Below, one piece after another: positions 2,864-42,949 of a DNA stretch of 42,949 nt. The position numbers and the translations under genes were made by a program. Below the pieces are notes generated by a model. That model was not told where the DNA came from and made no database searches. It saw only the letters and a program-made list of their open reading frames with translations. Within the stretch, counting starts at the first letter, position 1, and every line of letters begins with the position of its first letter. Source of the stretch: an uncultured Muribaculaceae bacterium (GTDB taxonomy: Bacteria; Bacillota_I; Bacilli_A; RF39; UBA660); assembly GCA_964565085.1 (NCBI GenBank), contig CAZMCS010000002.1, positions 1 to 42,949 of the forward strand. The letters run 5' to 3'.

Positions 2864-3835
2864 ATGGACAATTTAAATATTATAGTTAAAATGAAGTTCG
2901 GAAGTAAACTGTACGGCACAGACACCCCTGAATCTGATACGGATTATAAAGGAGTGTTTCTTCCCACAGCCAAAGAGGTATTACTGAACAGGATTCCTAA
3001 AAGCTACAACTATATGACTAAGCAAAACAAAAAAGATAAAAATTCCTCAGAAGATATGGACATTGAGTTTTACTCTCTTCATCATTTCATTAAACTGGCT
3101 TGTGAAGGACAAACAGTCGCTATGGACATGATTCATGCGCCTGATCACATGATTGAAGAAAAAACCGATATATGGGATTTAATAGTCAATAACCGAAAAA
3201 AACTCTATACTAAAAAGATGAAAGCCTTTGTCGGATATGCAAAACGACAAATGGAAAAACACGGTGTTTCTTCTGATAGATTAGGAAATTTAAACAAGAT
3301 TATTAAACAGTTAATTATGTTTAGAGACAGTAAAAAGTGTCATGAAACAAAATTAAAAGATATTTGGGACGATCTTCCTGATCTAGAGTTTACTAGAAGA
3401 CTTTATGATGAAAAAAGTAAATTACGAATGTATAAAGTAATTGATAGGAAATTCCAAGAAACTATTTCTATTGATTACATGTTAGACTGCCTTATAAAAA
3501 CTGAATCAACATATGGAAACCGTATTCGCAAAGCTGAAGAAAATCAAGTAGATTTTAAAGCTCTGTCTCATGCGTTGCGTACTGCTTATCAAATGAGAGA
3601 ACTTTTAATCGATAATACTATTACTTTTCCATTAAAAAATGCGAGCTTTATAAAAGAAGTTAAACAAGGTAAACACGACTATTTAACTGTAGTTGCTCCA
3701 GTACTAGAAAATCTATTCAGCGAAGTGGAAGAGTTGATTATAGACAGTGATTTGCCTGAAAGTGTTGATGCGGAATATTGGGACGGGTTACTGATGTTTA
3801 TCATAGGTGACAACGTTCTTAATATGTATACCTAA
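2864..3835 (+). CDS. RlaP-like (RNA-repair-associated) Pol-beta-fold nucleotidyltransferase
   Basis: The N-terminal motif KFGSKLYGTDTPESDTDYKGVF is the GS-x-YG...SD-x-D signature of the RlaP / predicted nucleotidyltransferase family. The length (~320 aa) is typical. Confidence 0.65.
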   Translation: MDNLNIIVKMKFGSKLYGTDTPESDTDYKGVFLPTAKEVLLNRIPKSYNYMTKQNKKDKNSSEDMDIEFYSLHHFIKLACEGQTVAMDMIHAPDHMIEEKTDIWDLIVNNRKKLYTKKMKAFVGYAKRQMEKHGVSSDRLGNLNKIIKQLIMFRDSKKCHETKLKDIWDDLPDLEFTRRLYDEKSKLRMYKVIDRKFQETISIDYMLDCLIKTESTYGNRIRKAEENQVDFKALSHALRTAYQMRELLIDNTITFPLKNASFIKEVKQGKHDYLTVVAPVLENLFSEVEELIIDSDLPESVDAEYWDGLLMFIIGDNVLNMYT

Positions 3836-9814: not shown

Positions 9815-10345
9815 ATGCCAAAAAAGGTAATAACGAAGTTTCTAGTACAAATGTTGATGCCTAACGAATTTGATACGGAGATATTAAAACGAAGAATATT
9901 TAACGTCAATATTAGATTACTGGTTGACAATAAGCAATATCGAAAAATAATTTCGTATATAATCTATTATATGAACAATTTGATGGAAACAAAATTCAGT
10001 GATTATACTACATTAAAGGGATTGTCAGGAGCAAACCTAGGCATACCGTTTAATATCATAGCAGTAAGGGACAATGGGTCCATAAAGATACTAATAAACC
10101 CACGAATAACTAAAAAATCTACGCGTACAAAAATTATTAACTCAAACTGTGGCTCGATAAGATTAAGCAAACCAATACCAGTAAGAAGATCCATCTGGAT
10201 AAATGTCGAATGGTACGATATTAAGGGAACTAGATATGTTTCTAAATTTGAAGGACCTGTAGGAAATACAATACAACATGAAATAGATCACAATCTTGGC
10301 GTATTAATAACAAATCGTAGTAACACAGAGACAAGACATGCTTAA
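9815..10345 (+). CDS. def: peptide deformylase-like protein
   Basis: Motif 1 GLSGANLG, motif 2 region NCGSI (canonical EGCLS), and motif 3 QHEIDHNLG. Confidence 0.7.
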   Translation: MPKKVITKFLVQMLMPNEFDTEILKRRIFNVNIRLLVDNKQYRKIISYIIYYMNNLMETKFSDYTTLKGLSGANLGIPFNIIAVRDNGSIKILINPRITKKSTRTKIINSNCGSIRLSKPIPVRRSIWINVEWYDIKGTRYVSKFEGPVGNTIQHEIDHNLGVLITNRSNTETRHA

Positions 10346-11510
10346 AATACAAGAATTCATACGTCAGTTTGAAGACATAGAAGATGCCAACATGTTCTTA
10401 AAAGAAAAATTACATCTAAAGATAAAAAAATCACTATTAAGACATCAAGATAACAGCTATGATGAAGTGTTTATTTATAACTATGATACAATAAAATCCA
10501 ATAAAACCAACGTGATAGTAAAAGAAGCAAGAGCATTAATTCTGGATAAACAAAGCAACATAGTAAGTATGTCGTTTCAAAGATTTTTCAATCAAGGAGA
10601 ATTAACTATAGATCACATTGATTGGGAGAGCACTGTAGCTGAAGAAAAATTAGATGGATCCTTGATAGTAATTTACAATTATAATGGTGATTGGTACATT
10701 CAAAGCAGGTCAGAACCCATGGCAGGTTGGTTTGTCCACAAAACTGATTTTACCTATGATACTCTTGCTAAAAGGGCATTATTGTCTAAGCAAAAAGAAA
10801 AAGACCCGTTTTGGATTTTTAAACAAGAAGAAAATAAATATTGTTATGTCTTCGAACTTGTTAGTCCGTATAATCGCATAGTTACTCCGTACGAAAGTAC
10901 CAGCTTATTTTTGCTAACAATTGTAGATAAGCATGCTGAAAAAGAACTAAGTAGAGATATGATAAATGACTTTGCTAAAAAGTATAATTTAGAACGACCT
11001 GAGACGTACAGAGTGAGAAATATAAAAGAGGTAGAGTACTTACTAGAAAATCTACTTCCGCTAGATGAAGGTTTTGTAGTAGTAGATGATAACAAAAATC
11101 GTATAAAAGTAAAAAACAAAGATTACTTATCAATCAGCAGAGTCGTTATTAAAAGCCGTAATCTACAAGCTAGATGTTTTGCAGAAATAGTACTAAATGG
11201 AAATGCCGACGAAATTACTACATATTTTCCAGAGTATACTCAAGTGTTGCGACTATTCACCGACTTACTTAGCATTCTATCAGATGAATTGTCATTCATA
11301 TGGTTTGATTGCCAAGACATCAAAAGTCAAAAAGAATTTGCCATTAAAATAAAAGATAACCCGTTAAGTAGTATATTGTTTAAAAAAAGGAATGGGTACA
11401 TTTCTAGTATTGATGACGAGCTGATGAAAATAAAACCAGATAAATTGGTTAGTATTGCTCAAAACAGAATTGGAAGTGAATTACAGAACGAATTAGAGTC
11501 TTTATTGTGA
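10338..11510 (+). CDS. ATP-dependent RNA ligase, Rnl1/Trl1-like
   Basis: Nucleotidyltransferase motifs occur in order: I EEKLDGS (K at 10647-10649), III YVFELV, IV EGFVVVD, V RIKVKNKDY. The upstream block ARALILD...FQRFFNQGE resembles the Rnl1/Trl1 clade. Confidence 0.8.
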   Translation: MLKIQEFIRQFEDIEDANMFLKEKLHLKIKKSLLRHQDNSYDEVFIYNYDTIKSNKTNVIVKEARALILDKQSNIVSMSFQRFFNQGELTIDHIDWESTVAEEKLDGSLIVIYNYNGDWYIQSRSEPMAGWFVHKTDFTYDTLAKRALLSKQKEKDPFWIFKQEENKYCYVFELVSPYNRIVTPYESTSLFLLTIVDKHAEKELSRDMINDFAKKYNLERPETYRVRNIKEVEYLLENLLPLDEGFVVVDDNKNRIKVKNKDYLSISRVVIKSRNLQARCFAEIVLNGNADEITTYFPEYTQVLRLFTDLLSILSDELSFIWFDCQDIKSQKEFAIKIKDNPLSSILFKKRNGYISSIDDELMKIKPDKLVSIAQNRIGSELQNELESLL

Positions 11511-12408: not shown

Positions 12409-13317
12409 ATGTCAACAAGTCGTCACACTATTGGTACTGATCCGGAATTTTTTGTAGTAGACAAAGAAACAGGTGAGCTCAAATCAGCCATACCACTCAT
12501 AGACGGTACTAAATATGAGCCAAAGAAAATGCCCGGAGGAAGTATGATACAGAGAGACAATGTTGCTTTAGAGTTTGCAACACCTCCAGCTGTAAACGGC
12601 CAAGATTTTGTGTCAAAAATAAGAGAAGCCTTTCAAGATGTTATGAAGGAATTGCCAGCCGGATATGATATTGCTCCAATACCTTCGGCAAATTTTTCTC
12701 CGGAACAACTTGACCATGTTGAAGCACAGATGTTTGGATGTGATCCAGACTTTGATGTTTGGACAATGACCCAAAATACTGCTCCGTACGCTCCTGATCA
12801 CACATTCAGAAGTTGTGGTGCCCATATACATGTAGGATACACAGAAGGCTCTGGAAACGAGTTTTTACTGGAATTCGGGGGCAAGTTTGCGACTGTAAAA
12901 ACGATGGACTTAGTTCATGGCATAATATCTACAGTTTTGGACAGTTCACCAGAGGCAATTGCTCGAAAGAAGTTATATGGTAAAGCCGGCTGCCATAGAA
13001 TAACATCATACGGTATAGAATACAGAGTATTGAGTAATTTCTGGTTGAAGAGTCCACAGTTAGTAATGCTTATGGACAGTCTTACTGTGGACGTACTAAA
13101 TCTAGTACGTACTAATAAACATGAAGAAATGATTGAGGCTATAGGGCAAGACACAATAGTATCTACTATAAATGAAGGAAATGTTTTAGTAGCTAAAGAA
13201 ATAATAGACTCCTACTTGATGGAAGTCTTGAGTGAGACATCAAAAGATTTACTGGCCATGTGTATCGAAAAAATAAACACATTTGATTTCAAAAAAGAAT
13301 GGGAGATGGAGGCTTAA
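12409..13317 (+). CDS. GCS/GS-superfamily COOH-NH2 ligase, phage 'type 2' (DPEF family), paralogue A1
   Basis: IGTDPEFFVV, D.VALEF, CGAHIHVG and GIEYRV blocks are shared with 27102-28319 and 33671-34993. From memory this matches the phiEco32-like COOH-NH2 ligase type 2 family. Confidence 0.55.
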   Translation: MSTSRHTIGTDPEFFVVDKETGELKSAIPLIDGTKYEPKKMPGGSMIQRDNVALEFATPPAVNGQDFVSKIREAFQDVMKELPAGYDIAPIPSANFSPEQLDHVEAQMFGCDPDFDVWTMTQNTAPYAPDHTFRSCGAHIHVGYTEGSGNEFLLEFGGKFATVKTMDLVHGIISTVLDSSPEAIARKKLYGKAGCHRITSYGIEYRVLSNFWLKSPQLVMLMDSLTVDVLNLVRTNKHEEMIEAIGQDTIVSTINEGNVLVAKEIIDSYLMEVLSETSKDLLAMCIEKINTFDFKKEWEMEA

Positions 13318-20412: not shown

Positions 20413-23400
20413 ATGAACGAATTAAGTAAGGTAGAGTTTCTAGAGCAACATATATCTAAACAATTCAACTCAAGAGCAATAGTGGAGGCCAACAAACAGG
20501 GACTTGATTATGGCATAACCTTACAGATAGAAAAAAAGGACAATACTTTGTGGGTAACTTTTTCTAAAAAGAAAGAGTGTCATGGTTTTTACATACCATT
20601 ACCATATGTTGATAAAGGAATAATATTAATAGAAAACAATGAAGTAAAAAGAGCAGTATGTAAATATTGGTTAGAAGAGCAACAATTGATGTATGATTAT
20701 ATGGATGTAATACATCAAGTTGTTTGTGGTGATCCTACCGGATTAGTTCCTAACTACTTCATTAAGAAAATAATCTTTATGCAGCAAATAGTGTATTCAT
20801 TTGAGAACAAAAACACAGCTACCGTAATATACAACTTACAAAGAGCTATAAATGATGTAGTAAACAAACTACCACTACATAGTACTTATATGAACAGTCT
20901 AGTAATGAATAACCGTATCGTAGTTATAGACCCATCTTTCGATTCTATACAAGACCCGGAAACTAGGCTTAAATATCATATTGAAAAATCCAAAAAATAT
21001 TTTGACAGAGGGTGGACACCGATTGGTTTGTCAGATGGTAGTTTATCTGACAAAAACTATACATTGGCCTATGACCTGAAAAAATTTACTCCATTTGGCG
21101 GAAGGTTTCATAACCCTCAAAGAAATTTGTACAGTACTTTAAGTATGAAAGGTGCTGAATTACCATTAGTACGTTCTAGTTCAATGGAGAAAATGCATGA
21201 AATTGGCATAACTAGAACAGGATGGAATTTAATAACTTTATTTGCAGATATTCCGGATGTATGGGAAGATCAAATAGTAGTAAGTAGAAGTGCGGCAGAT
21301 AAAATGGCTGTGACATATGAACGGAGGATTCAATGCCATGGTTCGATGCGTGTAAAAGAAGGCTTTTTACTTAAATACGGACAAGCTTTATCCGTATCAC
21401 CCGATGGAAGAATCAAACGATTTGATATATTATGCGACAAAGCATGGGTATGTAAAATAGCAGAGTCTACTATAAGTGTAGGTGGAGTACCTACCAAAGT
21501 ACATAATATAATAGTAAAGTTTATTCGCAAGCTTAAGGATGGCGTAAAAATAACCAATACTGCTGCTAATAAAGGAGTAGTAAAAATAGTAGACAACCTC
21601 GGACAGGCTATAGATCCAAGAACAGGAGAGACTAGGGAACTTGAAGTTATAGTCGGATGTCAGGCAGTAAGAAAGAGAAAAAACTATACTCAAATTCTTG
21701 AGGCGCTAATAAACAATGTAACAGATGAAAAAGGAGTAGTGGTACCTGATTACTATTGTCCCACAATAGAACAGATAGAAAAACAACTTGAAGAAAAAGG
21801 TTTTCCTGCTGATGGTACTTGGCAGTGTTGTACAAATGTTGGGAATTTGACCGGAATATGCGGTAAAGTATTCTGGGGCGTAACACATGACGTAGAAGAT
21901 ATGTTGTGGCAAGAAGAAGACGTGACAAGGACGAACACAAGGAATCTTAGAACAGCTGGGCTTAAATTTTCCACAGTAGAGATTAGGGCACTCGAAACTA
22001 GATTTGGAAAAGACAATTCAATAATTGACGAATTAATGTCTTATTCCCAGGGCAGCAGCCAGTTACATGAACAATTAAAAATACTGAGATCTAAAAAAGG
22101 CGAAATACCTCCAGATACCAAAACTATAGATTTTAGAAACATAAAACCAGTAGATCAGTCAAATGGAACTATAGTTAGCAAATCCGCTATAGAAGGAACA
22201 ATAGCAGATGAAACTTTATATCCATATAGTTTTATGTTAAACCTTCCTATAACATATCAAATAATAGTAGATGTAAATGATAAAGTAATATCGGAAGGAT
22301 ACGTACAAGTACCACTAAATGATCCAAGCAGACCAATAAAGTATATAGTACAACTGGATAAAATCTATGTACCATCAATGGAACTAAGAGAATGCTGGAG
22401 GCACGAAACAGGTAAATACGGTTTGAGTGAAATAAGCGCACTGCTGAATAACATTATTGCAGTATCACATAGACTAGACAATGATCCAGAATCTAGTGCA
22501 CATATACAAGTTCTACACAAGGTAGTCTACAATTATTTTAACACTGTAGCATGTAGACTTGGTTCGAAACGCGGAGAAATAAGTCAGTATGGTATGTCTA
22601 TAAGATATCCGTTTTCTGCAAAAGCAGTAGCAACTCTGAATAACAGGTTGCCTAAGAACACCATAGAAATACACAAAGACATGGCAGAATTATTAGACGT
22701 GCAAAACGGAGATGTTGTGTTAGCAGAAAGATTTCCATGTATGGGGTTCATGAGCCTAAGACCGCAAAAAGTGCGTGTAACTTCAGATGAAAACTGTAAG
22801 TTTACTATAAGAGTAAGCGGTAACTCACTAGGTTCTATGACTTTGGACTTTGATGGTGACGTATTATTCTTAGCTTCATTTCATACACAAGCAGCGAAAA
22901 AATTGTTACACGGAGAGTGGACAAACCCAAACAAACCATGTTATAGCGCTATTTTAGAATTAAATTCAAAAATGGGGAAACCACACATCAAGGAATTATC
23001 TCTACAAGACTACAAAATACAACCATTTGATTTATTAACTGTAAATACACATGCCGAAATAGTAGACAAAGCTGTCGGAGTAAAGAGTCATACAGGACCA
23101 GTTATAGCATTTGCATACAATATTATGAGAATCATGGAAAATTCTAAAATTGCAAATAATCAAAAGGCGAATTGTGCAGTAGAAATATTCTTGGACAAGG
23201 TAGGTAATTCTATATTCAAACAAAAACACGGAGTAAAAGCTCTACACTCCATCTGTATAGATGCTATTTGTACAGGTGATATAGATACATTGGTAGCTGA
23301 AGGATTCAAACGCGGTACATCTACAATAATATGTGATACTATCAAAGAGAAAGCTAGAGAATTGGGTGTGGACAACTTAGTACAGTATCATGAGTATATT

Positions 23401-23703
23401 CGCAGAACAGGCAGTAGCAACATCATAAGCAGAATAGTAAGATCTATGAACAAAGTATATTATGCTAGTAGATCTACATACGAAGGCATTGAATTATTAA
23501 GTGCACTTCAACAACCCGTAGTAGACATACCAAGTAAGTTACTAGCATGGTCATTATCAGGAAAGGCAGAGTCCATTAAAACCCCGTTTGATGCTAAATT
23601 AAACGAGACTCTATTACAAACAATATCTACTAAAAATGTAAGAAAGATGGGTAGAATAATGTTAGATTTTTTAGACGATACACTATTGCATAAATCAAAT
23701 TAA
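20413..23703 (+). CDS. single-polypeptide two-double-psi-beta-barrel RNA polymerase (YonO-like homologue of multisubunit RNAP beta/beta')
   Basis: Beta-type barrel signature TAANKGVVKIV (NKGVV at 21568-21582; compare bacterial beta GNKGV). Beta'-type block AERFPCMGFMSLRPQKVRV....MTLDFDGDVLF with the metal-binding DFDGD at 22846-22860. Both lie in one 1096-aa chain. Strong AAAGGAGG SD. Confidence 0.7.
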   Translation: MNELSKVEFLEQHISKQFNSRAIVEANKQGLDYGITLQIEKKDNTLWVTFSKKKECHGFYIPLPYVDKGIILIENNEVKRAVCKYWLEEQQLMYDYMDVIHQVVCGDPTGLVPNYFIKKIIFMQQIVYSFENKNTATVIYNLQRAINDVVNKLPLHSTYMNSLVMNNRIVVIDPSFDSIQDPETRLKYHIEKSKKYFDRGWTPIGLSDGSLSDKNYTLAYDLKKFTPFGGRFHNPQRNLYSTLSMKGAELPLVRSSSMEKMHEIGITRTGWNLITLFADIPDVWEDQIVVSRSAADKMAVTYERRIQCHGSMRVKEGFLLKYGQALSVSPDGRIKRFDILCDKAWVCKIAESTISVGGVPTKVHNIIVKFIRKLKDGVKITNTAANKGVVKIVDNLGQAIDPRTGETRELEVIVGCQAVRKRKNYTQILEALINNVTDEKGVVVPDYYCPTIEQIEKQLEEKGFPADGTWQCCTNVGNLTGICGKVFWGVTHDVEDMLWQEEDVTRTNTRNLRTAGLKFSTVEIRALETRFGKDNSIIDELMSYSQGSSQLHEQLKILRSKKGEIPPDTKTIDFRNIKPVDQSNGTIVSKSAIEGTIADETLYPYSFMLNLPITYQIIVDVNDKVISEGYVQVPLNDPSRPIKYIVQLDKIYVPSMELRECWRHETGKYGLSEISALLNNIIAVSHRLDNDPESSAHIQVLHKVVYNYFNTVACRLGSKRGEISQYGMSIRYPFSAKAVATLNNRLPKNTIEIHKDMAELLDVQNGDVVLAERFPCMGFMSLRPQKVRVTSDENCKFTIRVSGNSLGSMTLDFDGDVLFLASFHTQAAKKLLHGEWTNPNKPCYSAILELNSKMGKPHIKELSLQDYKIQPFDLLTVNTHAEIVDKAVGVKSHTGPVIAFAYNIMRIMENSKIANNQKANCAVEIFLDKVGNSIFKQKHGVKALHSICIDAICTGDIDTLVAEGFKRGTSTIICDTIKEKARELGVDNLVQYHEYIRRTGSSNIISRIVRSMNKVYYASRSTYEGIELLSALQQPVVDIPSKLLAWSLSGKAESIKTPFDAKLNETLLQTISTKNVRKMGRIMLDFLDDTLLHKSN

Positions 23704-27101: not shown

Positions 27102-28319
27102 ATGGATATAAATATCAGAATATCTAATGTTATGGATAGATGCAAAATATCTAAGATAGGTTTGTCTGAGAACAGGCTTATCAGACTACCGGCAGAAATG
27201 AGAACTTTATACGAGATAACACCTGGACAACAGTTAACACTTACTACTAAAACTGGATCACTGATCTCTTTATTAGTCACAGGGGCACATAAAGAAGATG
27301 TAGAAAAAGATGACCTAAGTGCATACGTAAATAGTGAAATCGCTGAATTATTAGGAATAGAGGATAATAACTCGATAGAAGTTTCATTATATGATGGCCT
27401 AACACTAGGATGTGACCCTGAATTTTTTATAGTTGATAAATATAAAGGCTTTATTCATTCGGCATCTATGTTCTTTCAAAAATGGGGAGATGTAGGATAC
27501 GATGGTATCATGGCAGAAGTAAGACCACTACCCAGTGTAAGCGCATATGTGGTAACCTCAAATATATTTTCACTTATCAAAAAAGCAAGAAGAATAATAG
27601 ACAATCATCCTAGTGGAATAGGCAAAAATATAATAATGGTAGCCTCGTCATCATTCAACAACATACAAGCTGGTTTTCATTTACATTATGGAATGCCTTT
27701 ACATATGCTTGGTTATGCTCCTGAAGGTAGTATTAAAAACAAGTTGATAAATCAAATAATAAAAGTTATGGATTTCTACATAGGAATCCCAAGCATTATT
27801 ATTGAAGGTACATGTGATAGCTCCAGACGCACAAATTTATTTTCGGACTATGGCAAACCTGGAGGATACAGACTTGACACTAGAACGCTAGAATATAGGG
27901 TGCCTGGGGGTGCTTTACTGAAACACCCAGCCCTAACTAGTGGCATCTTGGCACTCGGTGCTGTAGTAGTAGAAGACATAGTAAGCAGGATAAAAGAATA
28001 TTCTGATCAATTTATTGATCTATCAGTAATTACCACACCTGAAGATATTAGGGCGTTATACAATAGCTTACCACAGACTAAAGAAATATTTAAAGCAATA
28101 TGTAGTAAAGATACTGGTATAGCTGAAGAAATGATGTCAATTATAATACCTGACATCGAAAAGATGGTAGGTTATAAAAGAAGAGCACATGTGATAAAAA
28201 ACTTTTTTTCCATAATAAAACACAAAGAGGAATTTAACAATAACATAGAAAACAACTGGGAGGGATTTGGTAATGAGACTCAATCTGGACAAATGGACAT
28301 TTATACAGCACAGTTCTAA
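27102..28319 (+). CDS. COOH-NH2 ligase type 2 (DPEF family), paralogue A2, with a ~95-aa N-terminal extension
   Basis: LGCDPEFFIVD, DGIMAEVRPLPS, GFHLHYG and LEYRVPG are collinear with A1 and A3. Confidence 0.55.
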   Translation: MDINIRISNVMDRCKISKIGLSENRLIRLPAEMRTLYEITPGQQLTLTTKTGSLISLLVTGAHKEDVEKDDLSAYVNSEIAELLGIEDNNSIEVSLYDGLTLGCDPEFFIVDKYKGFIHSASMFFQKWGDVGYDGIMAEVRPLPSVSAYVVTSNIFSLIKKARRIIDNHPSGIGKNIIMVASSSFNNIQAGFHLHYGMPLHMLGYAPEGSIKNKLINQIIKVMDFYIGIPSIIIEGTCDSSRRTNLFSDYGKPGGYRLDTRTLEYRVPGGALLKHPALTSGILALGAVVVEDIVSRIKEYSDQFIDLSVITTPEDIRALYNSLPQTKEIFKAICSKDTGIAEEMMSIIIPDIEKMVGYKRRAHVIKNFFSIIKHKEEFNNNIENNWEGFGNETQSGQMDIYTAQF

Positions 28320-33650: not shown

Positions 33651-33670
33651 ACCATATATGGAGATCTGTG

Positions 33671-34993
33671 ATGCAGAAAAAGTTAGTGTTGATGATTTCG
33701 GACAAGATGGATCTGAACAAGAAGTCGGATAGAAACGAGCACTCTTTATTAAGAATGTCAGCTATGACGCGAGACAATCTGCAATTTAATAAGACATTTG
33801 TAGAACTAAAACCAACTTCCAATGCTATAAATTCACTAAAACTAAATATTTTTAGGGCATTCTCGTCTGATATAAATAAACTTAAAGAAAAAGTAGCAAG
33901 TGGTGAATTAACACTAGATGAGATAAACAGAGTGGGTTTCGTAACCAGAGATACTTATAAGAGAATCCTTGGCAACAGGCGCCAAAAAAACATATGGATT
34001 TCGGATAACAGTGACCCAACACAACAAATAGAGAATTTAGTAATAGGTTCTGATCCAGAATTTTTATTGTTTAACGAGGTAGGGGAAGTAGTAAGAGCCA
34101 ACAGTCTAATGATTAAACAAGGCAAACTTGGTTGTGACGGTGCAATGGCAGAACTGAGGCCAGACCCGGCTAAATCACCAGAAGAAGTAGTGAATAACAT
34201 AATGCAAATACTTTCGGATGAGTCACTAACTACTAGAATAGCGACTACTAAATGGATTGCAGAGTGTTACTATAAGGATAGTGTCCGAGATTACCCTGTA
34301 GGTGGACATATTCATATTGGTAATCCACAACAAGTTGCCGATATACCTATGATGTACAGATGTGATTTTTTCAATTCGATAAACAAGATAATGGATGAAC
34401 TATTATCTGTGCCAATGATTAAATTAGATGGGTTGGAGAAAGGATCATCAAGGCGAACAAAATGCAACACGGTACTAAACGGATCGAACGGTTACGGGTG
34501 GTATGGGGAATGGCGCGAATGTAATGGCCACTTTGAACATAGAACTCTAAGTGGTTTATGGCTTACTCATCCAACACTAGCTGTAGCTGTGCTAGGAACA
34601 GCCGAAGCTATAGCTAAAGAGGTATTTAAATTAGGTGCAGCTTCTAACTATGATATGAATTACTTATTCCCACAAAAATTTCATGCAGTTAGCGTATGGA
34701 GTTCTGATTTTGATAGTTGGGCGGAAATACCATTGATAGTAGATATGAAATGCACTACTTCATCTAAACAGGTTAAAGCCTTATTACATGATTCTGATCC
34801 AAGTAATATAACTGATAGTTACTTAAAAGAGTGGTATAACAACATAAAAACGTTGTCTACTTATAGTAGGTATGATAAATACATAGATGTTTTGTACTCC
34901 ATACTTTGTCATTCAGATAAAGAGCTAAGTGATTATAGTAGAGATATCAAAGATAACTGGCTTGGGGGTAAAGAATACCTAACAACTATTTAA
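33671..34993 (+). CDS. COOH-NH2 ligase type 2 (DPEF family), paralogue A3, with a ~125-aa N-terminal extension
   Basis: IGSDPEFLLF, DGAMAELRPDPA, GGHIHIG and FEHRTLSG are collinear with A1 and A2. Confidence 0.55.
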   Translation: MQKKLVLMISDKMDLNKKSDRNEHSLLRMSAMTRDNLQFNKTFVELKPTSNAINSLKLNIFRAFSSDINKLKEKVASGELTLDEINRVGFVTRDTYKRILGNRRQKNIWISDNSDPTQQIENLVIGSDPEFLLFNEVGEVVRANSLMIKQGKLGCDGAMAELRPDPAKSPEEVVNNIMQILSDESLTTRIATTKWIAECYYKDSVRDYPVGGHIHIGNPQQVADIPMMYRCDFFNSINKIMDELLSVPMIKLDGLEKGSSRRTKCNTVLNGSNGYGWYGEWRECNGHFEHRTLSGLWLTHPTLAVAVLGTAEAIAKEVFKLGAASNYDMNYLFPQKFHAVSVWSSDFDSWAEIPLIVDMKCTTSSKQVKALLHDSDPSNITDSYLKEWYNNIKTLSTYSRYDKYIDVLYSILCHSDKELSDYSRDIKDNWLGGKEYLTTI

Positions 34994-38306: not shown

Positions 38307-39080
38307 ATGCCAGAAATAAATAAGCAAAATAATGTTCATTTGGATATAATATCACAAGAAGAGGTAGAAACTAAAGAGTCGTTTCCATTATTTATTTTAG
38401 GAGATACTCTTGAAGAAGCAGAAGAAGTATACCAAAAATTTGAAAGTTACCTCAATAAAATAGCATATACATACGCTACTGTATACCACGTAGAAAAATA
38501 CGATGTTTTTAGTGAGGCTTTATTAGGCCTTGGAAAAGCAATAAAAGGATTTGATAAACAAAGGAACGACAGTTTCATGTCATATGCTATGGTAGTAATT
38601 AAAGACACGCTGCATGAATATGTGAGAAAAATGTCCAGAGCGGTAGTAATACCTTCATATATAAAAAAGACTAATACCGTGTTAAGCAGAGTCAATGATA
38701 TTGCGTTGCCACCAGAGGAACGAGAAAAAGCTTTTGCTTTGTTAAAGAAGGCAGCCAAAAGGGCGGGTCTAACCGTAGAAGAATTATCTAACAGGGCAAG
38801 CGTGTTACCATCTAGTATAGAATATACTAATCAAATAGATTATTCAGATCAGCCTAATACATCGCCTGATAAAAAGGCGATGCTTATTATGACATTAGAT
38901 AAGTTATTTAAAACAATGACTGCTACTGAAAAAGAGATAGCCAAAGGACTAATGGATGATCTAAACCAGAGTGAAATAGCTATAAGACTTAACGTAGATA
39001 AGGCATATGTATCAGAAGTGTTAAAAAAATTCAGGAAAAGACTCAAAAGACTTGGTATTAAGATAGAAGACATAATATAA
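38307..39080 (+). CDS. sigma-70-family sigma factor
   Basis: Region 2-like FSEALLGLGKAIKGFDKQRNDSFMSYAMVVIKDTLHEYVRK. Region 4-like HTH LNQSEIAIRLNVDKAYVSEVLKKFRKRLK. Confidence 0.75.
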   Translation: MPEINKQNNVHLDIISQEEVETKESFPLFILGDTLEEAEEVYQKFESYLNKIAYTYATVYHVEKYDVFSEALLGLGKAIKGFDKQRNDSFMSYAMVVIKDTLHEYVRKMSRAVVIPSYIKKTNTVLSRVNDIALPPEEREKAFALLKKAAKRAGLTVEELSNRASVLPSSIEYTNQIDYSDQPNTSPDKKAMLIMTLDKLFKTMTATEKEIAKGLMDDLNQSEIAIRLNVDKAYVSEVLKKFRKRLKRLGIKIEDII

Positions 39081-39106
39081 AATCATTTAAGGAGGCAAGT
39101 AACAGA

Positions 39107-39526
39107 ATTGGTAAATTACATGAAATATTAGCAGTAAAAGACGATTCGGAGAACGCATTCAAAAAAGCAGTACAAGAAACAAAATCTATATTTGAGAAAG
39201 GAGATTTTTTTAATTCTTCTGTAAAAGTGTTAGAGATGTTTGATGATGCTGAGAATGCTAAGATAGGAGGTATAACAGAATGTAAAGATATGACTACAAC
39301 TGTGTTCGATAAACTGGACGACATAGTAGGGCCTACAGCACGGTTTCTAGACATTCTATTTCAACAGGAATCAACCAACCAGACAGCAAAAGCAGACGTA
39401 ATAGTAGGGGGTAAAGCTATTATAGAAAACGCACCTGCCACATTTTTGTTATCCCTGGGAAAGAAGTTAAATTCAATGAGGGATATGTATGACACTATTC
39501 CTACACTGGCGCCAGGGATTAGTTAG
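39107..39526 (+). CDS. hypothetical protein whose frame has no canonical start (possible ATT start) or is a truncated gene
   Basis: The frame is open from 39062. A strong AAGGAGG lies at 39089-39095. The first ATG/GTG/TTG in frame is only at 39227, while an ATT at 39107 is correctly spaced. Confidence 0.4.
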   Translation: MGKLHEILAVKDDSENAFKKAVQETKSIFEKGDFFNSSVKVLEMFDDAENAKIGGITECKDMTTTVFDKLDDIVGPTARFLDILFQQESTNQTAKADVIVGGKAIIENAPATFLLSLGKKLNSMRDMYDTIPTLAPGIS

Positions 39527-39578
39527 GAGAAAGATGAGAAAGAAGGAAGACACGTTTTGATTATCAATAAAAAAATCA

Positions 39579-39670
39579 TTCCTTGGTCGTTGGTTCAATT
39601 CCAACCTGCCCGGCCACTAAAACTTTAAACTATCGGGCAGTAACTCAGTGGCAGAGCTAGGAATTATTAG
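39579..39670 (+). tRNA. circularly permuted tRNA gene: 3' half (positions 39-76, CCA encoded) at 39579-39616, a 17-nt linker, and 5' half (positions 1-38) at 39634-39670
   Basis: 3' half: TTCCT-TGGTC-GTTGG-TTCAATT-CCAAC-CTGCCCG-G-CCA. 5' half: CGGGCAG-TA-ACTC-AGTGGCA-GAGC-T-AGGAA-TTATTAG. The two pieces form a perfect 7-bp acceptor stem and a perfect 5-bp anticodon stem. U8, A14, G18G19, A21, T54T55C56 and G53-C61 are all present. The order in the DNA is 3' half before 5' half. Confidence 0.6.
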
Positions 39671-39730
39671 ATTAATATCTATTGAAAAGCAAGTGTGAAT
39701 AAAAGTGCAAACCAAACATATTGTCTATCT

Positions 39731-39742
39731 ATCGTATACGAT
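39731..39742. repeat. perfect 12-bp palindrome ATCGTATACGAT
   Basis: Read directly. It lies in the spacer upstream of the cca gene. Confidence 0.5.
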
Positions 39743-39753
39743 TATATGAATAA

Positions 39754-39783
39754 GGGGGTATTGGAAGGCAATCCAATGCCCCC
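39754..39783 (+). other. strong GC-capped hairpin (12-bp stem)
   Basis: GGGGGTATTGGA / TCCAATGCCCCC with loop AGGCAA and one G-T wobble. No T-tract follows on the plus strand. Confidence 0.6.
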
Positions 39784-39836
39784 ACAAGAAAATAAGAAAG
39801 CACATGTTATATATTATATTATAAGGACAAAAACCA

Positions 39837-41363
39837 ATGAAGACCCTAGAAGCATTACAAAAGTTGGATAAAGAAACTAAAGCCAAGGTGTATATAGTAG
39901 GCGGTTTCGTACGGGACTTCTTAAGAAACAAGATTAATAATGATTTGGATATAGTAATAAGAAAGTACCATATAGAACAAATAATCAAATTTTTGTCAAA
40001 TTATGGTAGTGTTAAAAAAGTTAAACTATCACATACTAAGAATCAGTTTGGAATGTCTATAATACTGTTTAAAGCACATGGAGACACCATTGAAGCACAA
40101 ATAAGTCTTCCAAAAAAAGGTAAAACTCAAAAACAACACCCAACACATAGTTTAAAAGACGACGTTAAGCACAGGGATTTTACTATAAACGCTATGTATT
40201 TACCGATAAACTTTAAATCTAAAAAAGACTTGATAGATTTAGTGGGTGGTCAATTTAGTATTTTCCACAGACGTATATTCGCTGTAGGTAACCCACTTGA
40301 GCGAATAGTGGAATCACCAATACGCATAATGCGAGCTATATCGCTATCAGCTAGAACAGGCTATACTATAGACCCATTCGTAACAACTACTATGAAACAC
40401 GAAGCCAAACTGCTATACAAAGTACCTTTAGAAAATATACGTAATGAGTTAAACAAAATCCTGCTCAGTAAAAAACCATCTAAAAGTTTTAAGTTAATGG
40501 CTTACACAGGCATACTTCGTGTAATACTGCCAGAATTAGATGATTGTAGAGGAGTAAAACAGGATCGTAGGTATCATAAATGGGACGTATTCCATCATTG
40601 TATATATACTGCTGATTCCACTCCAGAAGATTTAACTTTGAGACTGGCTGGATTGTTACACGATATAGGAAAACCAAAATCCAAAAAAACATTAATCAGC
40701 GATAGTGGAGAAAAAGACAGGCTAACGTTTCATAAACATGAGATAATAGGACACAGACTTGCTAACAAAATACTTACTCGTTTAAAATATGATAATAAAT
40801 TAAAAACGCAAGTATTGGATTTGATAAAAAATCATATGTATCATTATATAGGTAATGTATATTGTTGTACTAATACTAGTTCATTGTGTACATGGAGAAA
40901 AGCAGTAGCTAAGACTGACAAAAATTTGACAACGTGTCCTATATGCGGAAGCCCTGTAGTTATCAAAAACGGATGGACAGACAGTTCTATAAGGAGATTT
41001 ATTGCAAATACAGGTATGACAGAATCAGACATAGAGAACCCTGATACCTTTCCACTATTTATTTTAAGAAGTGCAGACAGAAAAGGAAACGGATTCAAAG
41101 ATTTGCTTGTTACTGATAAACAAAAAGATTTCCAAAATCGAATAAAAAGTGTATTTAAATCTAGTAAAGCGCTCAAAGTTGCTGATTTAGATATAGACGG
41201 TACCGATTTAATGAACACATTTAATCTAAGTCAATCTCCAAAAATAGGTACTATACTTTCATACCTATTGGACCAGGTAATAGAACATCCACATTTCAAT
41301 AATAAACTTGATTTATTAAAATTGTCTACAGAATTCTTGTTTAATAAAGGCATTACATACTAA
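39837..41363 (+). CDS. cca: tRNA nucleotidyltransferase (CCA-adding enzyme) with an HD domain and a Cys-rich insertion
   Basis: Head IVGGFVRDFLRNK..DLDIV, RDFTINAMY, body RIMRAISLSAR. HD domain FHHC...LAGLLHDIGKP...FHKHEIIG. Confidence 0.85.
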   Translation: MKTLEALQKLDKETKAKVYIVGGFVRDFLRNKINNDLDIVIRKYHIEQIIKFLSNYGSVKKVKLSHTKNQFGMSIILFKAHGDTIEAQISLPKKGKTQKQHPTHSLKDDVKHRDFTINAMYLPINFKSKKDLIDLVGGQFSIFHRRIFAVGNPLERIVESPIRIMRAISLSARTGYTIDPFVTTTMKHEAKLLYKVPLENIRNELNKILLSKKPSKSFKLMAYTGILRVILPELDDCRGVKQDRRYHKWDVFHHCIYTADSTPEDLTLRLAGLLHDIGKPKSKKTLISDSGEKDRLTFHKHEIIGHRLANKILTRLKYDNKLKTQVLDLIKNHMYHYIGNVYCCTNTSSLCTWRKAVAKTDKNLTTCPICGSPVVIKNGWTDSSIRRFIANTGMTESDIENPDTFPLFILRSADRKGNGFKDLLVTDKQKDFQNRIKSVFKSSKALKVADLDIDGTDLMNTFNLSQSPKIGTILSYLLDQVIEHPHFNNKLDLLKLSTEFLFNKGITY

Positions 41364-42079: not shown

Positions 42080-42164
42080 GGGTAGGTGCCCGAGCTGGCT
42101 GAAGGGGGCGGGCTGTAGACTCGTTGACTGAAAATCCGCGGTGGTTCAAATCCATCCCTACCCA
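42080..42164 (+). tRNA. tRNA-Tyr (anticodon GTA), class II, CCA not encoded
   Basis: Acceptor GGGTAGG/CCTACCC. D arm TG-CCCGAGCTGGCTGAAGGGG is nearly collinear with bacterial tRNA-Tyr. Anticodon arm GCGGG-CTGTAGA-CTCGT. 15-nt variable region. T arm GGTGG-TTCAAAT-CCATC. Discriminator A, followed by CAA. Confidence 0.8.
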
Positions 42165-42284
42165 CAAATAAATTCTTTTGTTTGGTTATATTATGACGTT
42201 GAAAGTTGTTTAAAACAAAATTTTTATAGTATTGACTGCGATAATAGTTTTATAAGTTTTTCCAAAAGTCATTTCGTATATTGT

Positions 42285-42570
42285 GAACTACCCACGACCC
42301 TAAAGGGTCGGGGCTTCTAATAGAAGTCGGTTCACCAGACTAAGCTATGAGAAATCACAGCTACGATATTTAGGTCATAACACCCTCGGTTGACGCATCA
42401 GACCGTTGCTCTGTTATCCGTGATTAAGTAGAGGTTAAGGGTACGCCTCGGTGTTGCGGATGTAAAAAGCCTATATATCTTTGTCGAGATGAGGACGGAA
42501 AAGCAACGTGGTAATAGCGTTGTAGAGTACGCATAACACCGCAAGGTGAATTATTCTGAAAGGAATTTTT
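42285..42570 (+). ncRNA. probable omega RNA (HEARO-type) of the downstream IscB; exact 5' end and guide not determined
   Basis: GC-rich, ORF-free, visibly structured leader immediately 5' of iscB, e.g. hairpin CCCACGACCC-TAAA-GGGTCGGGG at 42291-42313. IscB omega RNAs are encoded upstream of and abutting the ORF. Confidence 0.5.
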
Positions 42571-42949
42571 ATGAAAATATATGTAATAAGCAAGAATGGG
42601 AAGCCACTGATGCCAACAACTCCCGCAAGAGCAAGAAAAATGCTTAGAGACGGAAAAGCTAAGTGTATCCGCAGAACACCATTTACCATTAAGTTGCTCT
42701 ATGAAACCACGAGCTATACTCAATCAATAACACTTGGAGTAGACACCGGAAGTAGTCATGTTGGAAGTGCGGCTGTGGATTCTGCGGGGAGTGTTGTTTA
42801 TTTGTCTGAAACGGAAATCAGAAACGACATTGCTGACAAGATGAAACAACGAGCTAAATATCGTAGGAATAGAAGAAATCGTAAAACAAGGTACCGTCAG
42901 GCACGATGGCTAAACCGCAAAAACAGCATTAAGTCCGATAGATTTTCTC
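42571..42949 (+). CDS. iscB: IscB-family (or IsrB) OMEGA RNA-guided nuclease, N-terminal 126 aa; the ORF runs off the window
   Basis: My translation is MKIYVISKNGKPLMPTTPARARKMLRDGKAKCIRRTPFTIKLL...ITLGVDTGSSHVGSAAVD...RAKYRRNRRNRKTRYRQARWLNRKN. This gives a PLMP domain, the RuvC-I motif GVDTGS, and an arginine-rich RRxRR bridge helix. It is not in the supplied ORF track because it has no stop inside the window. Confidence 0.85.
   Translation, partial: MKIYVISKNGKPLMPTTPARARKMLRDGKAKCIRRTPFTIKLLYETTSYTQSITLGVDTGSSHVGSAAVDSAGSVVYLSETEIRNDIADKMKQRAKYRRNRRNRKTRYRQARWLNRKNSIKSDRFS

What the first reader, a model, noticed from the sequence alone, without database searches (positions are those of the whole stretch)
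39564..39685. Circularly permuted tRNA gene: 3' half encoded upstream of the 5' half, split in the anticodon loop
Seen directly: positions 39579-39616 read as tRNA positions 39-76 (TTCCT, variable TGGTC, T arm GTTGG-TTCAATT-CCAAC, acceptor CTGCCCG, discriminator G, CCA). After a 17-nt linker, 39634-39663 read as positions 1-31 (CGGGCAG, TA, D arm ACTC-AGTGGCA-GAGC, T, AGGAA). The two pieces form perfect 7-bp acceptor and 5-bp anticodon stems and carry the universal tertiary nucleotides. No 5' half lies before 39579 and no 3' half lies after 39670, so two ordinary tRNA genes cannot explain this. The flanks also pair: GATT (39670-39673) with AATC (39574-39577), and TATTGA (39680-39685) with TCAATA (39564-39569). 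That extends the anticodon arm as a leader-trailer helix, as in archaeal split tRNAs. If the junction is at the canonical 37/38 site, the loop would be UUAUUA+A, giving anticodon AUU. Discriminator G73 is compatible with tRNA-Asn, but this assignment is inference only. Permuted tRNA genes are established in the red alga Cyanidioschyzon merolae, some green algae and one archaeon. Permuted two-piece tmRNA genes occur in some bacteria. I am not aware of a permuted tRNA gene in a phage. Bacteria lack the bulge-helix-bulge (BHB) splicing endonuclease, so a different maturation route would be needed. One option is a two-piece tRNA. Another is sealing by the Rnl1-type ligase encoded at 10338-11510, an enzyme class that naturally seals anticodon-loop breaks.
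Basis: partly seen in the sequence, partly recalled or inferred. Interest (0 to 1): 0.92.

Follow-up and report, generated by a model that had tools for sequence, protein, structure and literature searches.

The report
Phage tRNA-mimic RNA, not a tRNA
The "permuted tRNA gene" is real sequence, but it is one member of a widespread, undescribed family of phage tRNA-shaped non-coding RNAs (built like bacterial YrlA/Y RNAs) that always sit just after an uncharacterised protein gene, DUF7873, which in this genome is truncated.

Summary
In detail: 39579-39616 (3' half plus GCCA), a 17-nt linker, then 39634-39663 (5' half), with perfect acceptor and anticodon-like stems. It is not chance and not a scar. 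The same arrangement lies just downstream of a DUF7873 gene in 79 of 80 IMG/VR loci, 18 of 21 MAG contigs and two cultured phages tested, and in 0 of 29 control loci. The T arm, the acceptor stem closed across the linker and the D stem covary strongly (98.4% paired against 64% shuffled). A covariance model built without the window hits 39565-39692 at 87 bits.

It is not a decoding tRNA. There is no anticodon loop. A stem of variable length leads into a conserved non-tRNA internal loop and, in the family, a long leader-trailer stalk. The best Rfam match is YrlA (Y RNA-like), full length but below threshold, and the Ro60-binding motif and Ro60 gene are absent.

Best reading: a YrlA-like tRNA mimic whose partner is DUF7873. 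It is probably opened by RNase P at the encoded N-CCA linker, as shown for M. smegmatis YrlA. In this window the DUF7873 gene is a truncated pseudogene and the stalk is weak, so this copy may be a relic.

The result is a new variant of a known kind, of moderate to high interest.

The parts
39107..39562 (+). Truncated, decayed DUF7873 gene (residues about 1-150 of about 248). Homologues' Met1 aligns to ATT 39107 (Shine-Dalgarno AAGGAGG at 39089-95), a conserved Trp aligns to an in-frame TAG at 39524-26, and homology stops at about 39558-62.
   Evidence: Pfam DUF7873 match covers only profile positions 52-133 of 244. tblastn of full-length homologues aligns through the TAG to 39559-62, and no C-terminal part is found anywhere in the window.
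39564..39578 (+). Remaining leader, the 5' strand of the stalk (TCAATA, AAAA, AATC, A). It is short compared with the 45-60 nt leaders of other family members.
   Evidence: The partner-swap test is not significant for the window.
39579..39583 (+). 3' strand of the anticodon-like stem (TTCCT). Pairs 5/5 with 39659-63.
   Evidence: Family own-partner mean is 4.34 of 5 against 3.31 for swapped partners.
39584..39605 (+). Variable loop (TGGTC) and T arm (GTTGG-TTCAATT-CCAAC).
   Evidence: T stem 99.3% paired, 4 of 5 pairs with compensatory changes.
39606..39616 (+). Acceptor 3' strand CTGCCCG, discriminator G, and the encoded CCA.
   Evidence: CCA in 58 of 65 non-redundant members; acceptor pairs 99-100% paired, all 7 with compensatory changes.
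39617..39633 (+). Linker that caps the acceptor stem (CTAAAACTTTAAACTAT). It ends in TAT, as in 27 of 65 members. This is the inferred RNase P / 3'-trimming site.
   Evidence: Processing is inferred from M. smegmatis YrlA (PMC4201824).
39634..39658 (+). Acceptor 5' strand CGGGCAG, U8-A9, D arm ACTC-AGTGGCA-GAGC, and T26.
39659..39663 (+). 5' strand of the anticodon-like stem (AGGAA).
39664..39679 (+). Conserved family-specific internal-loop motif in the trailer (TTATTAGATTAATATC). T39667 and A39675 are at least 90% conserved; A39669 and T39673 at least 70%.
   Evidence: Alignments A3 and A4; matched by model R1.
39680..39697 (+). Trailer, the 3' strand of the stalk (TATTGA, a GAAAAG motif resembling the family's YGAAAG, then CAAGTGTG). 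Its outer 5' partner is largely missing in this genome.

Best explanation
The element at 39564-39692 is a non-coding tRNA-mimic RNA of the YrlA (Y RNA-like) architectural class. It belongs to a previously undescribed sub-family that is encoded immediately downstream of DUF7873 genes in many phages.

SHOWN:
- The RNA has a tRNA-like head: T arm, 7-bp acceptor stem closed across a variable linker, D arm, and all tertiary-interaction nucleotides.
- The transcript's two ends lie at the 'anticodon' side. There a short stem leads into a conserved asymmetric internal loop and, in the family, a 35-45-bp interrupted leader-trailer stalk.
- The head covaries strongly, and co-occurrence with DUF7873 is essentially complete.

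INFERRED:
- DUF7873 binds the conserved loop/stalk, playing the role that Ro60 plays for Y RNAs.
- The encoded N-CCA plus a pyrimidine at position -1 make the linker a substrate for RNase P and 3' trimming. That would yield a nicked, two-piece tRNA-shaped RNA with a free CCA end, as shown experimentally for M. smegmatis YrlA.
- The tRNA-shaped head engages or decoys tRNA-recognising enzymes (repair, processing or host defence nucleases) during infection.

It is not matured into a decoding tRNA.

In this genome a deletion of roughly 0.5 kb removed the C-terminal 40% of DUF7873, the intergenic spacer and most of the outer 5' strand of the stalk, and the remnant gene has since lost its ATG and gained a stop. 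This copy is therefore either a protein-independent survivor or a relic.

The confidence of 0.75 is a blend: about 0.9 that it is a member of this tRNA-mimic family and not a decoding tRNA, about 0.6 that DUF7873 is the binding partner, and about 0.5 for RNase P processing into two pieces.
For: - Rejoined halves are always called a tRNA.
- The permuted detector finds the same arrangement downstream of DUF7873 in 76 of 80 loci and nowhere in 29 control loci.
- Covariance model R1, built without the window, hits the window at 87 bits over its full length. It also hits 79 of 80 IMG/VR DUF7873 loci, 18 of 21 MAG loci and 0 of 29 controls, and Rhizobium phage RHph_TM30 and Vibrio phage D491, where the RNA is unannotated.
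- RNAalifold and the pair counts give 15 of 16 pairs with compensatory changes, 98.4% paired against 64% shuffled and 35-47% slid, and a covariation score of 0.879 against 0.198, reached by 0 of 500 shuffles.
- The stalk is real in the family: -23.5 against -13.7 kcal/mol for own against swapped partners.
- N-CCA occurs in 58 of 65 members and position -1 is T in 36 of 65.
- The best Rfam match is YrlA over the full length of that model.
- DUF7873 is the only conserved neighbouring gene.
- The syntenic relative L001 lacks the whole segment.
- The YrlA processing precedent is in PMC4201824.
Against: - There is no expression, processing or binding data for any member.
- DUF7873 has a confident model (pLDDT 88) but no recognisable RNA-binding fold or structural relative, so its role as the RNA's partner rests on synteny alone.
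- Four members replace CCA with CTA and cap the acceptor with a perfect hairpin, so a free CCA end cannot be essential to all.
- The window's copy lacks an intact partner gene and has a weak stalk.
- Some DUF7873 phages (Rhizobium) also encode Ro60 nearby.
Confidence: 0.75

Rival explanations
1. A genuine circularly permuted tRNA gene, as in Cyanidioschyzon. The leader-trailer helix would be cut and the ends ligated (for example by the phage Rnl1) to form an anticodon loop, and RNase P and RNase Z would open the acceptor, giving a decoding tRNA (Asn-AUU or similar).
For: The order of the halves, the perfect stems and tertiary nucleotides, the encoded CCA, ARAGORN accepting the rejoined sequence, and the RNA ligase and CCA enzyme in the genome.
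Against: - Across the family the distance from the D arm to the conserved trailer U varies from 7 to 11 nt, and the stem is 4-8 bp, so no fixed 5-bp stem plus 7-nt loop geometry can result.
- What is conserved is a non-tRNA motif and a stalk of about 40 bp.
- There is no canonical 3-4-3 bulge-helix-bulge motif.
- Acceptor and discriminator identities are heterogeneous.
- Ligase and CCA enzyme are not conserved neighbours.
- Four members have no CCA and a closed acceptor hairpin.
Confidence: 0.04
2. A classical Ro60-bound YrlA RNA whose Ro60 (TROVE) gene lies elsewhere in the genome. On this view the DUF7873 adjacency is incidental.
For: YrlA is the best Rfam match, and end to end. Phage YrlA-type RNAs near TROVE or vWA genes score similarly low with Rfam. 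Rhizobium phages carry both DUF7873 and TROVE within 6 kb.
Against: - The Ro-binding motif GNCGAAN0-1G occurs in only 4 of 65 leaders.
- No TROVE domain was found among the window's large ORFs or as a conserved neighbour in 80 loci.
- The Vibrio D-type, Klebsiella, Serratia and Ralstonia phages with DUF7873 give no TROVE hit.
- In RHph_TM30 the TROVE gene has its own YrlA-type RNAs directly upstream (36-57 bits), while the DUF7873-linked RNA scores 81 bits with the DUF-type model.
Confidence: 0.08
3. A cis-acting tRNA-like 'punctuation' or stability element. RNase P or RNase Z cleavage at the head would process or stabilise the DUF7873 mRNA 3' end (like mascRNA or mitochondrial tRNA punctuation), rather than the RNA acting as a trans-acting RNP.
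For: It always lies on the same strand 60-650 nt after the DUF7873 stop codon. No promoter-like or terminator-like site flanks the window's copy. The encoded CCA and the -1 U suggest RNase P recognition.
Against: A processing signal would not need a conserved internal-loop motif and a covarying stalk of about 40 bp. The element persists intact in the window after the upstream gene was destroyed.
Confidence: 0.1
4. A rearrangement scar: remnants of two tandem tRNA genes, an attP/attB recombination product, or a dimeric-tRNA artefact.
For: The element abuts a deletion breakpoint and a pseudogene. The segment is absent from the syntenic relative L001. Tandem tRNA genes do give weak hits to such models (PMC4201824).
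Against: The same arrangement, with different sequences and compensatory changes, recurs in about 100 independent loci. No flanking tRNA halves, direct repeats or integrase were found. Among 144 real tandem-tRNA pattern matches, acceptor complementarity peaks at 3 of 7.
Confidence: 0.01
5. This concerns the window's copy only, and is compatible with the best explanation for the family. The copy would be a non-functional relic of the DUF7873-RNA module, retained only because the deletion is recent.
For: The partner gene is truncated at residue about 150, has lost its ATG and has TGG changed to TAG. The outer 5' strand of the stalk is missing and the stalk is no better than swapped partners. In sibling contig L032, 2 of 4 substitutions over 756 bp fall inside the 38-nt 3' half.
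Against: The head and trailer motif are fully intact, scoring 87 bits, which is mid-range for the family. The element is identical in three of four independent samples, and both L032 changes keep pairing as G-U.
Confidence: 0.35

Closest known systems
[quoted passage not shown] 2014, PMC4201824; Wang et al. 2018, bioRxiv 10.1101/312249; Thermus phage phiLo Yrl1/2, PMC12135203)
   Same: - The topology is the same: the RNA's termini pair into a bulged stem, and the distal module is a tRNA mimic in the order T arm, acceptor-like stem capped by a loop, D arm.
- It is encoded next to its presumed protein partner on the same strand, often among tRNA genes.
- The Rfam YrlA model aligns end to end.
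- Like M. smegmatis YrlA, it has a 7-bp acceptor stem, which is the feature that allows RNase P cleavage and a CCA end.
   Different: - The partner gene is DUF7873 (about 250 aa, unknown fold), not Ro60/TROVE.
- The Ro-binding GNCGAAN0-1G motif on the 5' strand is absent. Instead there is a U-N-A...U-R-A motif on the 3' strand, and in many members AGUA / YGAAAG motifs further out.
- A full N-CCA is encoded in 89% of members, whereas S. Typhimurium YrlA lacks a free CCA.
- It scores below Rfam's gathering threshold (32-47 bits against 69).
- It coexists as a separate module with Ro60-YrlA in Rhizobium phage RHph_TM30.
Circularly permuted tRNA genes of Cyanidioschyzon merolae, some green algae and Thermofilum pendens (from my own knowledge: Soma et al. 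2007; Maruyama et al. 2010; Chan et al. 2011)
   Same: The 3' half is encoded upstream of the 5' half. A short intervening sequence joins the acceptor strands. The leader and trailer base-pair.
   Different: Those genes give mature decoding tRNAs through a bulge-helix-bulge splicing endonuclease, circularisation and RNase P/Z. Here there is no canonical BHB motif, no fixed anticodon-arm geometry, a conserved non-tRNA stalk, a bacterial-phage context and a dedicated protein partner.
Two-piece (permuted) tmRNA genes
   Same: Permuted gene order, with T arm, acceptor 3' strand and CCA upstream of the acceptor 5' strand. The product is processed into two base-paired pieces.
   Different: There is no G3-U70 alanine identity pair (1 of 61 members), a full D arm, and no tag reading frame or pseudoknots. 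ARAGORN calls no tmRNA, and Rfam tmRNA_permuted scores 14.7 bits against a threshold of 47.

Membership tests
Canonical (collinear, decoding) tRNA gene | Collinear 5'-to-3' cloverleaf detectable by tRNA finders | tested here: not met
   ARAGORN and the Rfam tRNA model find nothing at 39564-39692. A tRNA is called only after in-silico rejoining.
Canonical (collinear, decoding) tRNA gene | 5-bp anticodon stem closing a 7-nt loop with U33 and R37 | tested here: not met
   No closed loop exists. The stem opens into the leader and trailer. In the family the spacing from the D arm to the conserved U is 7-11 nt.
Circularly permuted tRNA genes (C. merolae type) | 3' half upstream of 5' half, with acceptor strands joined by a short intervening sequence | tested here: met
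Circularly permuted tRNA genes (C. merolae type) | Leader and trailer form a bulge-helix-bulge motif (3-nt bulges flanking a 4-bp helix) at the junction | tested here: not met
   Window: a 5-nt bulge on one strand, the 4-bp helix GATT/AATC, then a 6x4 internal loop. Family: loop sizes vary. The window's flank pairing is no better than swapped partners.
Circularly permuted tRNA genes (C. merolae type) | Maturation to a ligated, aminoacylated decoding tRNA | not testable with these tools
   Needs RNA-seq, northern blots and aminoacylation assays. The sequence geometry argues against it.
YrlA / Y RNA-like (RF02553) | tRNA-like module (T arm, loop-capped acceptor-like stem, D arm) carried on a stem formed by the RNA's 5' and 3' ends | tested here: met
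   Full-length alignment to RF02553, covariation of the head, and the family stalk. The stalk is weak in the window itself.
YrlA / Y RNA-like (RF02553) | Score at or above the Rfam gathering threshold (69 bits) | tested here: not met
   The window scores 32.3 bits and other family members 36-47 bits. YrlA-type elements in phage loci with TROVE or vWA genes also score only 36-37 bits.
YrlA / Y RNA-like (RF02553) | Ro60-binding motif GNCGAAN0-1G in the 5' strand of the stem | tested here: not met
   Present in 4 of 65 leaders, which is chance level, and absent in the window.
YrlA / Y RNA-like (RF02553) | Encoded within about 4 kb of, and on the same strand as, a Ro60/TROVE gene | tested here: not met
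   No TROVE domain among the window's ORFs scanned. DUF7873 is the only conserved neighbour in 80 loci.
Two-piece tmRNA | G3-U70 pair, tag reading frame, pseudoknots, detection by ARAGORN or Rfam | tested here: not met
DUF7873-associated tRNA-mimic RNA (family defined here) | Match to covariance model R1 (head plus trailer motif), built without the window | tested here: met
   87 bits, E = 7e-26, model positions 1-129 of 129. The family range is 46-106 bits.
DUF7873-associated tRNA-mimic RNA (family defined here) | Lies on the same strand directly downstream of a DUF7873 gene | tested here: met
   The DUF7873 remnant at 39107-39562 abuts the RNA. Unlike the other 64 of 65 homologues found, the gene is truncated.
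DUF7873-associated tRNA-mimic RNA (family defined here) | Long (35-45 bp) sequence-specific leader-trailer stalk | tested here: inconclusive
   The window's stalk is among the five weakest of 65 and no better than swapped partners.

The most novel reading that the evidence does not exclude
DUF7873 plus its tRNA-mimic RNA is a previously unrecognised, Ro60-independent ribonucleoprotein of tailed phages. The protein family has about 2,500 clusters at 50% identity and occurs in cultured Klebsiella, Serratia, Vibrio, Rhizobium, Gordonia, Ralstonia and cyanobacterial phages. On this reading RNase P opens the RNA into a two-piece, CCA-ended tRNA look-alike held on a protein-bound stalk. The complex would then capture, decoy or recruit tRNA-directed enzymes (host anticodon or acceptor nucleases, CCA-modifying toxins, or repair enzymes) during infection. 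That would make it a second, independent use of the Y-RNA principle.
Probability: 0.3. Interest if true: 0.8.

Novelty: new variant of a known kind. Interest (0 to 1): 0.6.

Why it matters
tRNA mimicry by YrlA RNAs has so far been tied to Ro60, and the job of the tRNA-like head is still unknown. Here the same architecture is strictly linked to a different, uncharacterised protein in a very large phage family. Members include easily grown phages of Klebsiella, Vibrio and Rhizobium, and in at least one of them (Rhizobium phage RHph_TM30) both systems coexist.

That gives a second, independent handle on what a tRNA-shaped head on a protein-bound stalk is for. It assigns a first testable role to DUF7873 and adds an unannotated RNA gene to many phage genomes, where small bogus ORFs are sometimes called over it. 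It also shows that 'permuted tRNA' signatures in phages should first be read as Y-RNA-like mimics rather than as split tRNA genes.

Tried and rejected
- **Stop-codon reassignment.** Reading through the TAG at 39524 would extend the ORF through the 3' half. Rejected: the TAG aligns with a conserved Trp (TGG to TAG), and homology ends at about 39560.
- **Insertion into DUF7873.** The C-terminal part of the gene is nowhere else in the window, so the event was a deletion, not a simple insertion.
- **att-site, tandem-tRNA or dimeric-tRNA scar.** Rejected by family conservation and covariation. Real tandem tRNAs show acceptor complementarity peaking at 3 of 7.
- **Two-piece tmRNA.** Rejected.
- **DNA-level relatives in GenBank phages.** None found for the region or for the large RNAP-like protein.
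- **Exact-pattern scans of IMG/VR** for either half or for the whole junction: none found.
- **The search for related loci with the truncated DUF fragment alone:** nothing found. It succeeded only with an alignment of full-length homologues.
- **CCA-enzyme relatives.** 29 loci carry no such RNA, so the adjacency to the CCA enzyme in the window is not a family feature.
- **DUF7873 function.** No PDB sequence hit, no PHROG, no PADLOC family, no significant PDB or BFVD fold match, no domain fusions among the top 150 representatives, and no paper mentions it.
- **Promoter and terminator scan of 39000-39900:** nothing found.
- **Aligning the stalk.** MAFFT cannot align the leader, so stalk covariation was tested by partner swapping rather than column by column.
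Full report
**1.

- a tRNA 3' half with variable loop, T arm, acceptor 3' strand, discriminator G and CCA at 39579-39616
- a 17-nt linker
- a 5' half with acceptor strand, U8-A9, D arm and the 5' strand of an anticodon-type stem at 39634-39663

ARAGORN and Rfam at gathering thresholds see only a tRNA-Tyr (42080-42165) and a HEARO RNA (42283-42496) in the window. Whichever way the two halves are rejoined in silico, ARAGORN calls a tRNA.

I wrote a detector that looks for a 7-bp acceptor closure across a short linker and then runs ARAGORN, with introns allowed, on the rejoined sides. It found only this element in the window and none in 29 unrelated phage loci, out of 21,237 candidates in all. 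Chance is excluded.

**2. Local context**

All genes run on the + strand at about 34% G+C. The local order is a RuvB-like ATPase, a sigma-70-like factor (38307-39080), a short ORF matching Pfam DUF7873, the element, and a CCA-adding enzyme with an HD domain (39837-41363).

The DUF7873 ORF matches only profile positions 52-133 of 244. Full-length homologues of about 248 aa align in frame from 39107 to about 39560. Their Met1 falls on ATT, a conserved Trp falls on the in-frame TAG at 39524-26 (a single G-to-A change from TGG), and nothing beyond residue about 150 exists anywhere in the window. The gene is therefore a truncated pseudogene whose breakpoint abuts the element.

A relative with the same gene order (L001; CCA enzyme 46% identical) runs straight from the sigma gene into the CCA gene and lacks the whole 760-bp segment. 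Three 99.7%-identical contigs from other samples carry the same truncated gene and the same element. One of them (L032) has two C-to-T changes in the 3' half, at positions 48 and 71, and both keep pairing as G-U.

**3. The element belongs to a large conserved family**

I used an alignment of full-length DUF7873 proteins to fetch 80 IMG/VR loci. ARAGORN showed that these genes usually lie among tRNA genes. The detector found a permuted tRNA-like element on the same strand 150-650 nt downstream of DUF7873 in 76 of the 80 loci, with almost no hits elsewhere.

Laid out piece by piece, 65 non-redundant members share these features:
- a canonical T arm, a 7-bp acceptor stem and a D arm
- N-CCA directly after the acceptor 3' strand in 58 of 65
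- a linker of 9-95 nt, either short and A-rich or a hairpin
- T at position -1 in 36 of 65

RNAalifold on a plain MAFFT alignment of 61 sequences recovers the T stem, the acceptor stem closed across the linker, and the D stem. 15 of 16 pairs show compensatory double changes, and 1 of 427 acceptor-stem cells (61 sequences × 7 pairs) is broken. The formal count gives:
- 98.4% of cells paired, against 64% after shuffling and 35-47% when partners are slid
- a covariation score of 0.879 against 0.198, reached by 0 of 500 shuffles

A covariance model built from 60 members without the window gives these results:

| Target set | Result |
|---|---|
| Window | 39565-39692, 87 bits, E = 7e-26, full model length |
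| IMG/VR DUF7873 loci | 79 of 80 hit at 46 bits or more (the exception is a contig ending inside the gene) |
| MAG contigs with DUF7873 | 18 of 21 at 46 bits or more |
| CCA-enzyme control loci | 0 of 29 |
| Rhizobium phage RHph_TM30 | 81 bits, RNA unannotated |
| Vibrio phage D491 | 58 bits, a small "hypothetical protein" ORF called on top of it |

DUF7873 is the only gene conserved around the RNA. The protein family has about 2,500 clusters at 50% identity, and the 150 best hits are all single-domain proteins of about 250 aa.

**4. It is not a decoding tRNA**

Below the D arm there is a stem of 4-6 pairs. Own partners average 4.34 of 5 pairs against 3.31 for swapped partners. The stem does not close a loop. 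On the 3' side it runs into a conserved motif, roughly U-N-A...U-R-A, with T39667 and A39675 at least 90% conserved. The distance of this motif from the D arm varies between 7 and 11 nt, so no fixed anticodon-arm geometry exists.

Further out, leader and trailer form an interrupted helix with a median of 37 bp. It is sequence-specific: -23.5 kcal/mol for own partners against -13.7 for swapped partners, and in 37 of 62 members the own trailer is the best or second-best partner. Many members also have AGUA (leader) and YGAAAG (trailer) motifs.

There is no canonical bulge-helix-bulge motif. Discriminator and acceptor identities are heterogeneous, and G3-U70 occurs once. Four members replace CCA with CTA and cap the acceptor stem with a perfect hairpin.

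**5. What it resembles**

With permissive thresholds, the best Rfam match for the region is YrlA (RF02553, "Y RNA-like"). Other family members score 36-47 bits.

YrlA RNAs have the same topology, with a tRNA mimic whose termini lie on the anticodon side. They are encoded next to Ro60/TROVE genes in more than 250 bacteria and phages. The M. smegmatis YrlA has a 7-bp acceptor stem, is cleaved by RNase P in vitro and in vivo, and receives CCA, giving two Ro-bound halves (PMC4201824; structure in bioRxiv 10.1101/312249; phage Ro60-Yrl complex in PMC12135203).

The family found here differs in several ways:
- The Ro-binding motif GNCGAAN0-1G is at chance level (4 of 65).
- No TROVE protein was found among the window's ORFs scanned or as a conserved neighbour.
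- DUF7873 has a confident AlphaFold model (pLDDT 88) that matches nothing in the PDB or BFVD. It also has no PHROG, PADLOC or literature entry.

A pattern scan of IMG/VR gave useful positive controls. One element with 7/7 acceptor closure lies next to a TROVE gene (L230), and one next to a vWA/DUF2828/DUF7788 protein (L171).

In Rhizobium phage RHph_TM30 both systems coexist about 6 kb apart. The TROVE gene has its own YrlA-type elements directly upstream, scoring 36-57 bits with my model. The DUF7873-linked RNA scores 81 bits because it carries the family-specific trailer motif. The Vibrio D-type, Klebsiella, Serratia and Ralstonia phages with DUF7873 give no TROVE hit.

**6. Most likely mechanism**

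Shown: a tRNA-shaped head on a covarying stalk, strictly syntenic with DUF7873.

Inferred:
- DUF7873 binds the conserved internal loop and stalk, as Ro60 binds Y RNAs.
- The encoded N-CCA and the -1 pyrimidine make the linker an RNase P and 3'-trimming site, giving a nicked two-piece tRNA look-alike with a free CCA end.
- The head recruits or decoys tRNA-recognising enzymes during infection.

The window's genome carries many RNA-repair-type genes (Rnl1, RlaP, CCA enzyme with HD domain).

**7. This particular copy**

The head and trailer motif are intact, and 87 bits is mid-range for the family. However:
- The partner gene is destroyed.
- The 5' outer strand of the stalk is replaced by the DUF7873 remnant.

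A single deletion of about 0.5 kb, followed by decay of the gene remnant, explains this. I cannot tell whether the RNA still works without its protein or is a recent relic, and I put the relic reading at about 0.35.

**8. Verdict**

It is not a permuted gene for a decoding tRNA, and the arrangement is not unprecedented in phages.

It is a new variant of a known kind, a YrlA-like tRNA mimic with a new, uncharacterised protein partner. It is widespread, is not represented by a family of its own in Rfam 15 (only sub-threshold YrlA matches), and was not found in the literature searches run here. Interest is 0.6.

Noticed in passing
window 42283-42949: A HEARO/omega RNA (RF02033, 123.5 bits) followed by the start of an IscB-like ORF (from about 42570, running off the window). 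This is an insertion relative to the 99.7%-identical sibling contigs L030 and L031, whose homology with the window stops at 42290. It looks like a recent IscB-element insertion just after tRNA-Tyr.
   Followed up: partly
window 39754-39783: A strong 12-bp hairpin (GGGGGTATTGGA-AGGCAA-TCCAATGCCCCC) lies between the RNA and the CCA-enzyme gene. No T-run follows it, and the scan does not call it a terminator.
   Followed up: no
L034 7066-7211; L054 7096-7242; L075 7042-7176; L114 3379-3636; L115 3391-3661: Several DUF7873 loci carry a second permuted tRNA-like element in tandem right after the first, reminiscent of the YrlA/YrlB pairs next to Ro60. Many others have an ordinary tRNA gene 40-100 nt downstream.
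   Followed up: partly
L171 4644-6467: A YrlA-type element (62.9 bits with model R1, perfect 7-bp acceptor closure) lies directly downstream of a 484-aa DUF2828/DUF7788/vWA protein rather than a recognised TROVE protein. This may be a third protein-partner class, or a divergent Ro60.
   Followed up: partly
L257 (NC_070966.1 137000-144000) 2484-2758 and 3250-3327: Rhizobium phage RHph_TM30 has two or three unannotated YrlA-type elements upstream of its annotated TROVE gene, about 6 kb from its DUF7873-RNA module. Both lie inside the phage's tRNA gene cluster.
   Followed up: partly
L256 3425-3520 (Vibrio phage D491, OZ196387.1): A 31-codon 'hypothetical protein' CDS is annotated on top of the predicted RNA, which is probably a gene-calling artefact.
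   Followed up: no
window 2864-3835, 10338-11510, 12409-13317, 27102-28319, 33668-34993; L030 10023 onwards: The genome carries many RNA-repair and peptide-ligase-type genes: an RlaP nucleotidyltransferase, an Rnl1 ligase, three or more phiEco32-like COOH-NH2 ligases, and an Rnl2-like ligase in the sibling contig. There is also a 1096-aa protein (20413-23703) with weak Rpb2/Rpb1 RNA-polymerase domain hits.
   Followed up: no
L044, L052, L053, L094 (linker region): Four family members have CTA instead of CCA, and their linker is a perfect hairpin extension of the acceptor stem (TCTATG...CATAGA). This looks like an uncleavable, closed-acceptor variant, as in S. Typhimurium YrlA.
   Followed up: no
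L117, L121, L134 (MAG contigs): DUF7873-RNA modules occur on contigs binned as Bathyarchaeia and Promethearchaeota (Asgard) MAGs. I did not resolve whether these are archaeal viruses or mis-binned phage contigs.
   Followed up: no
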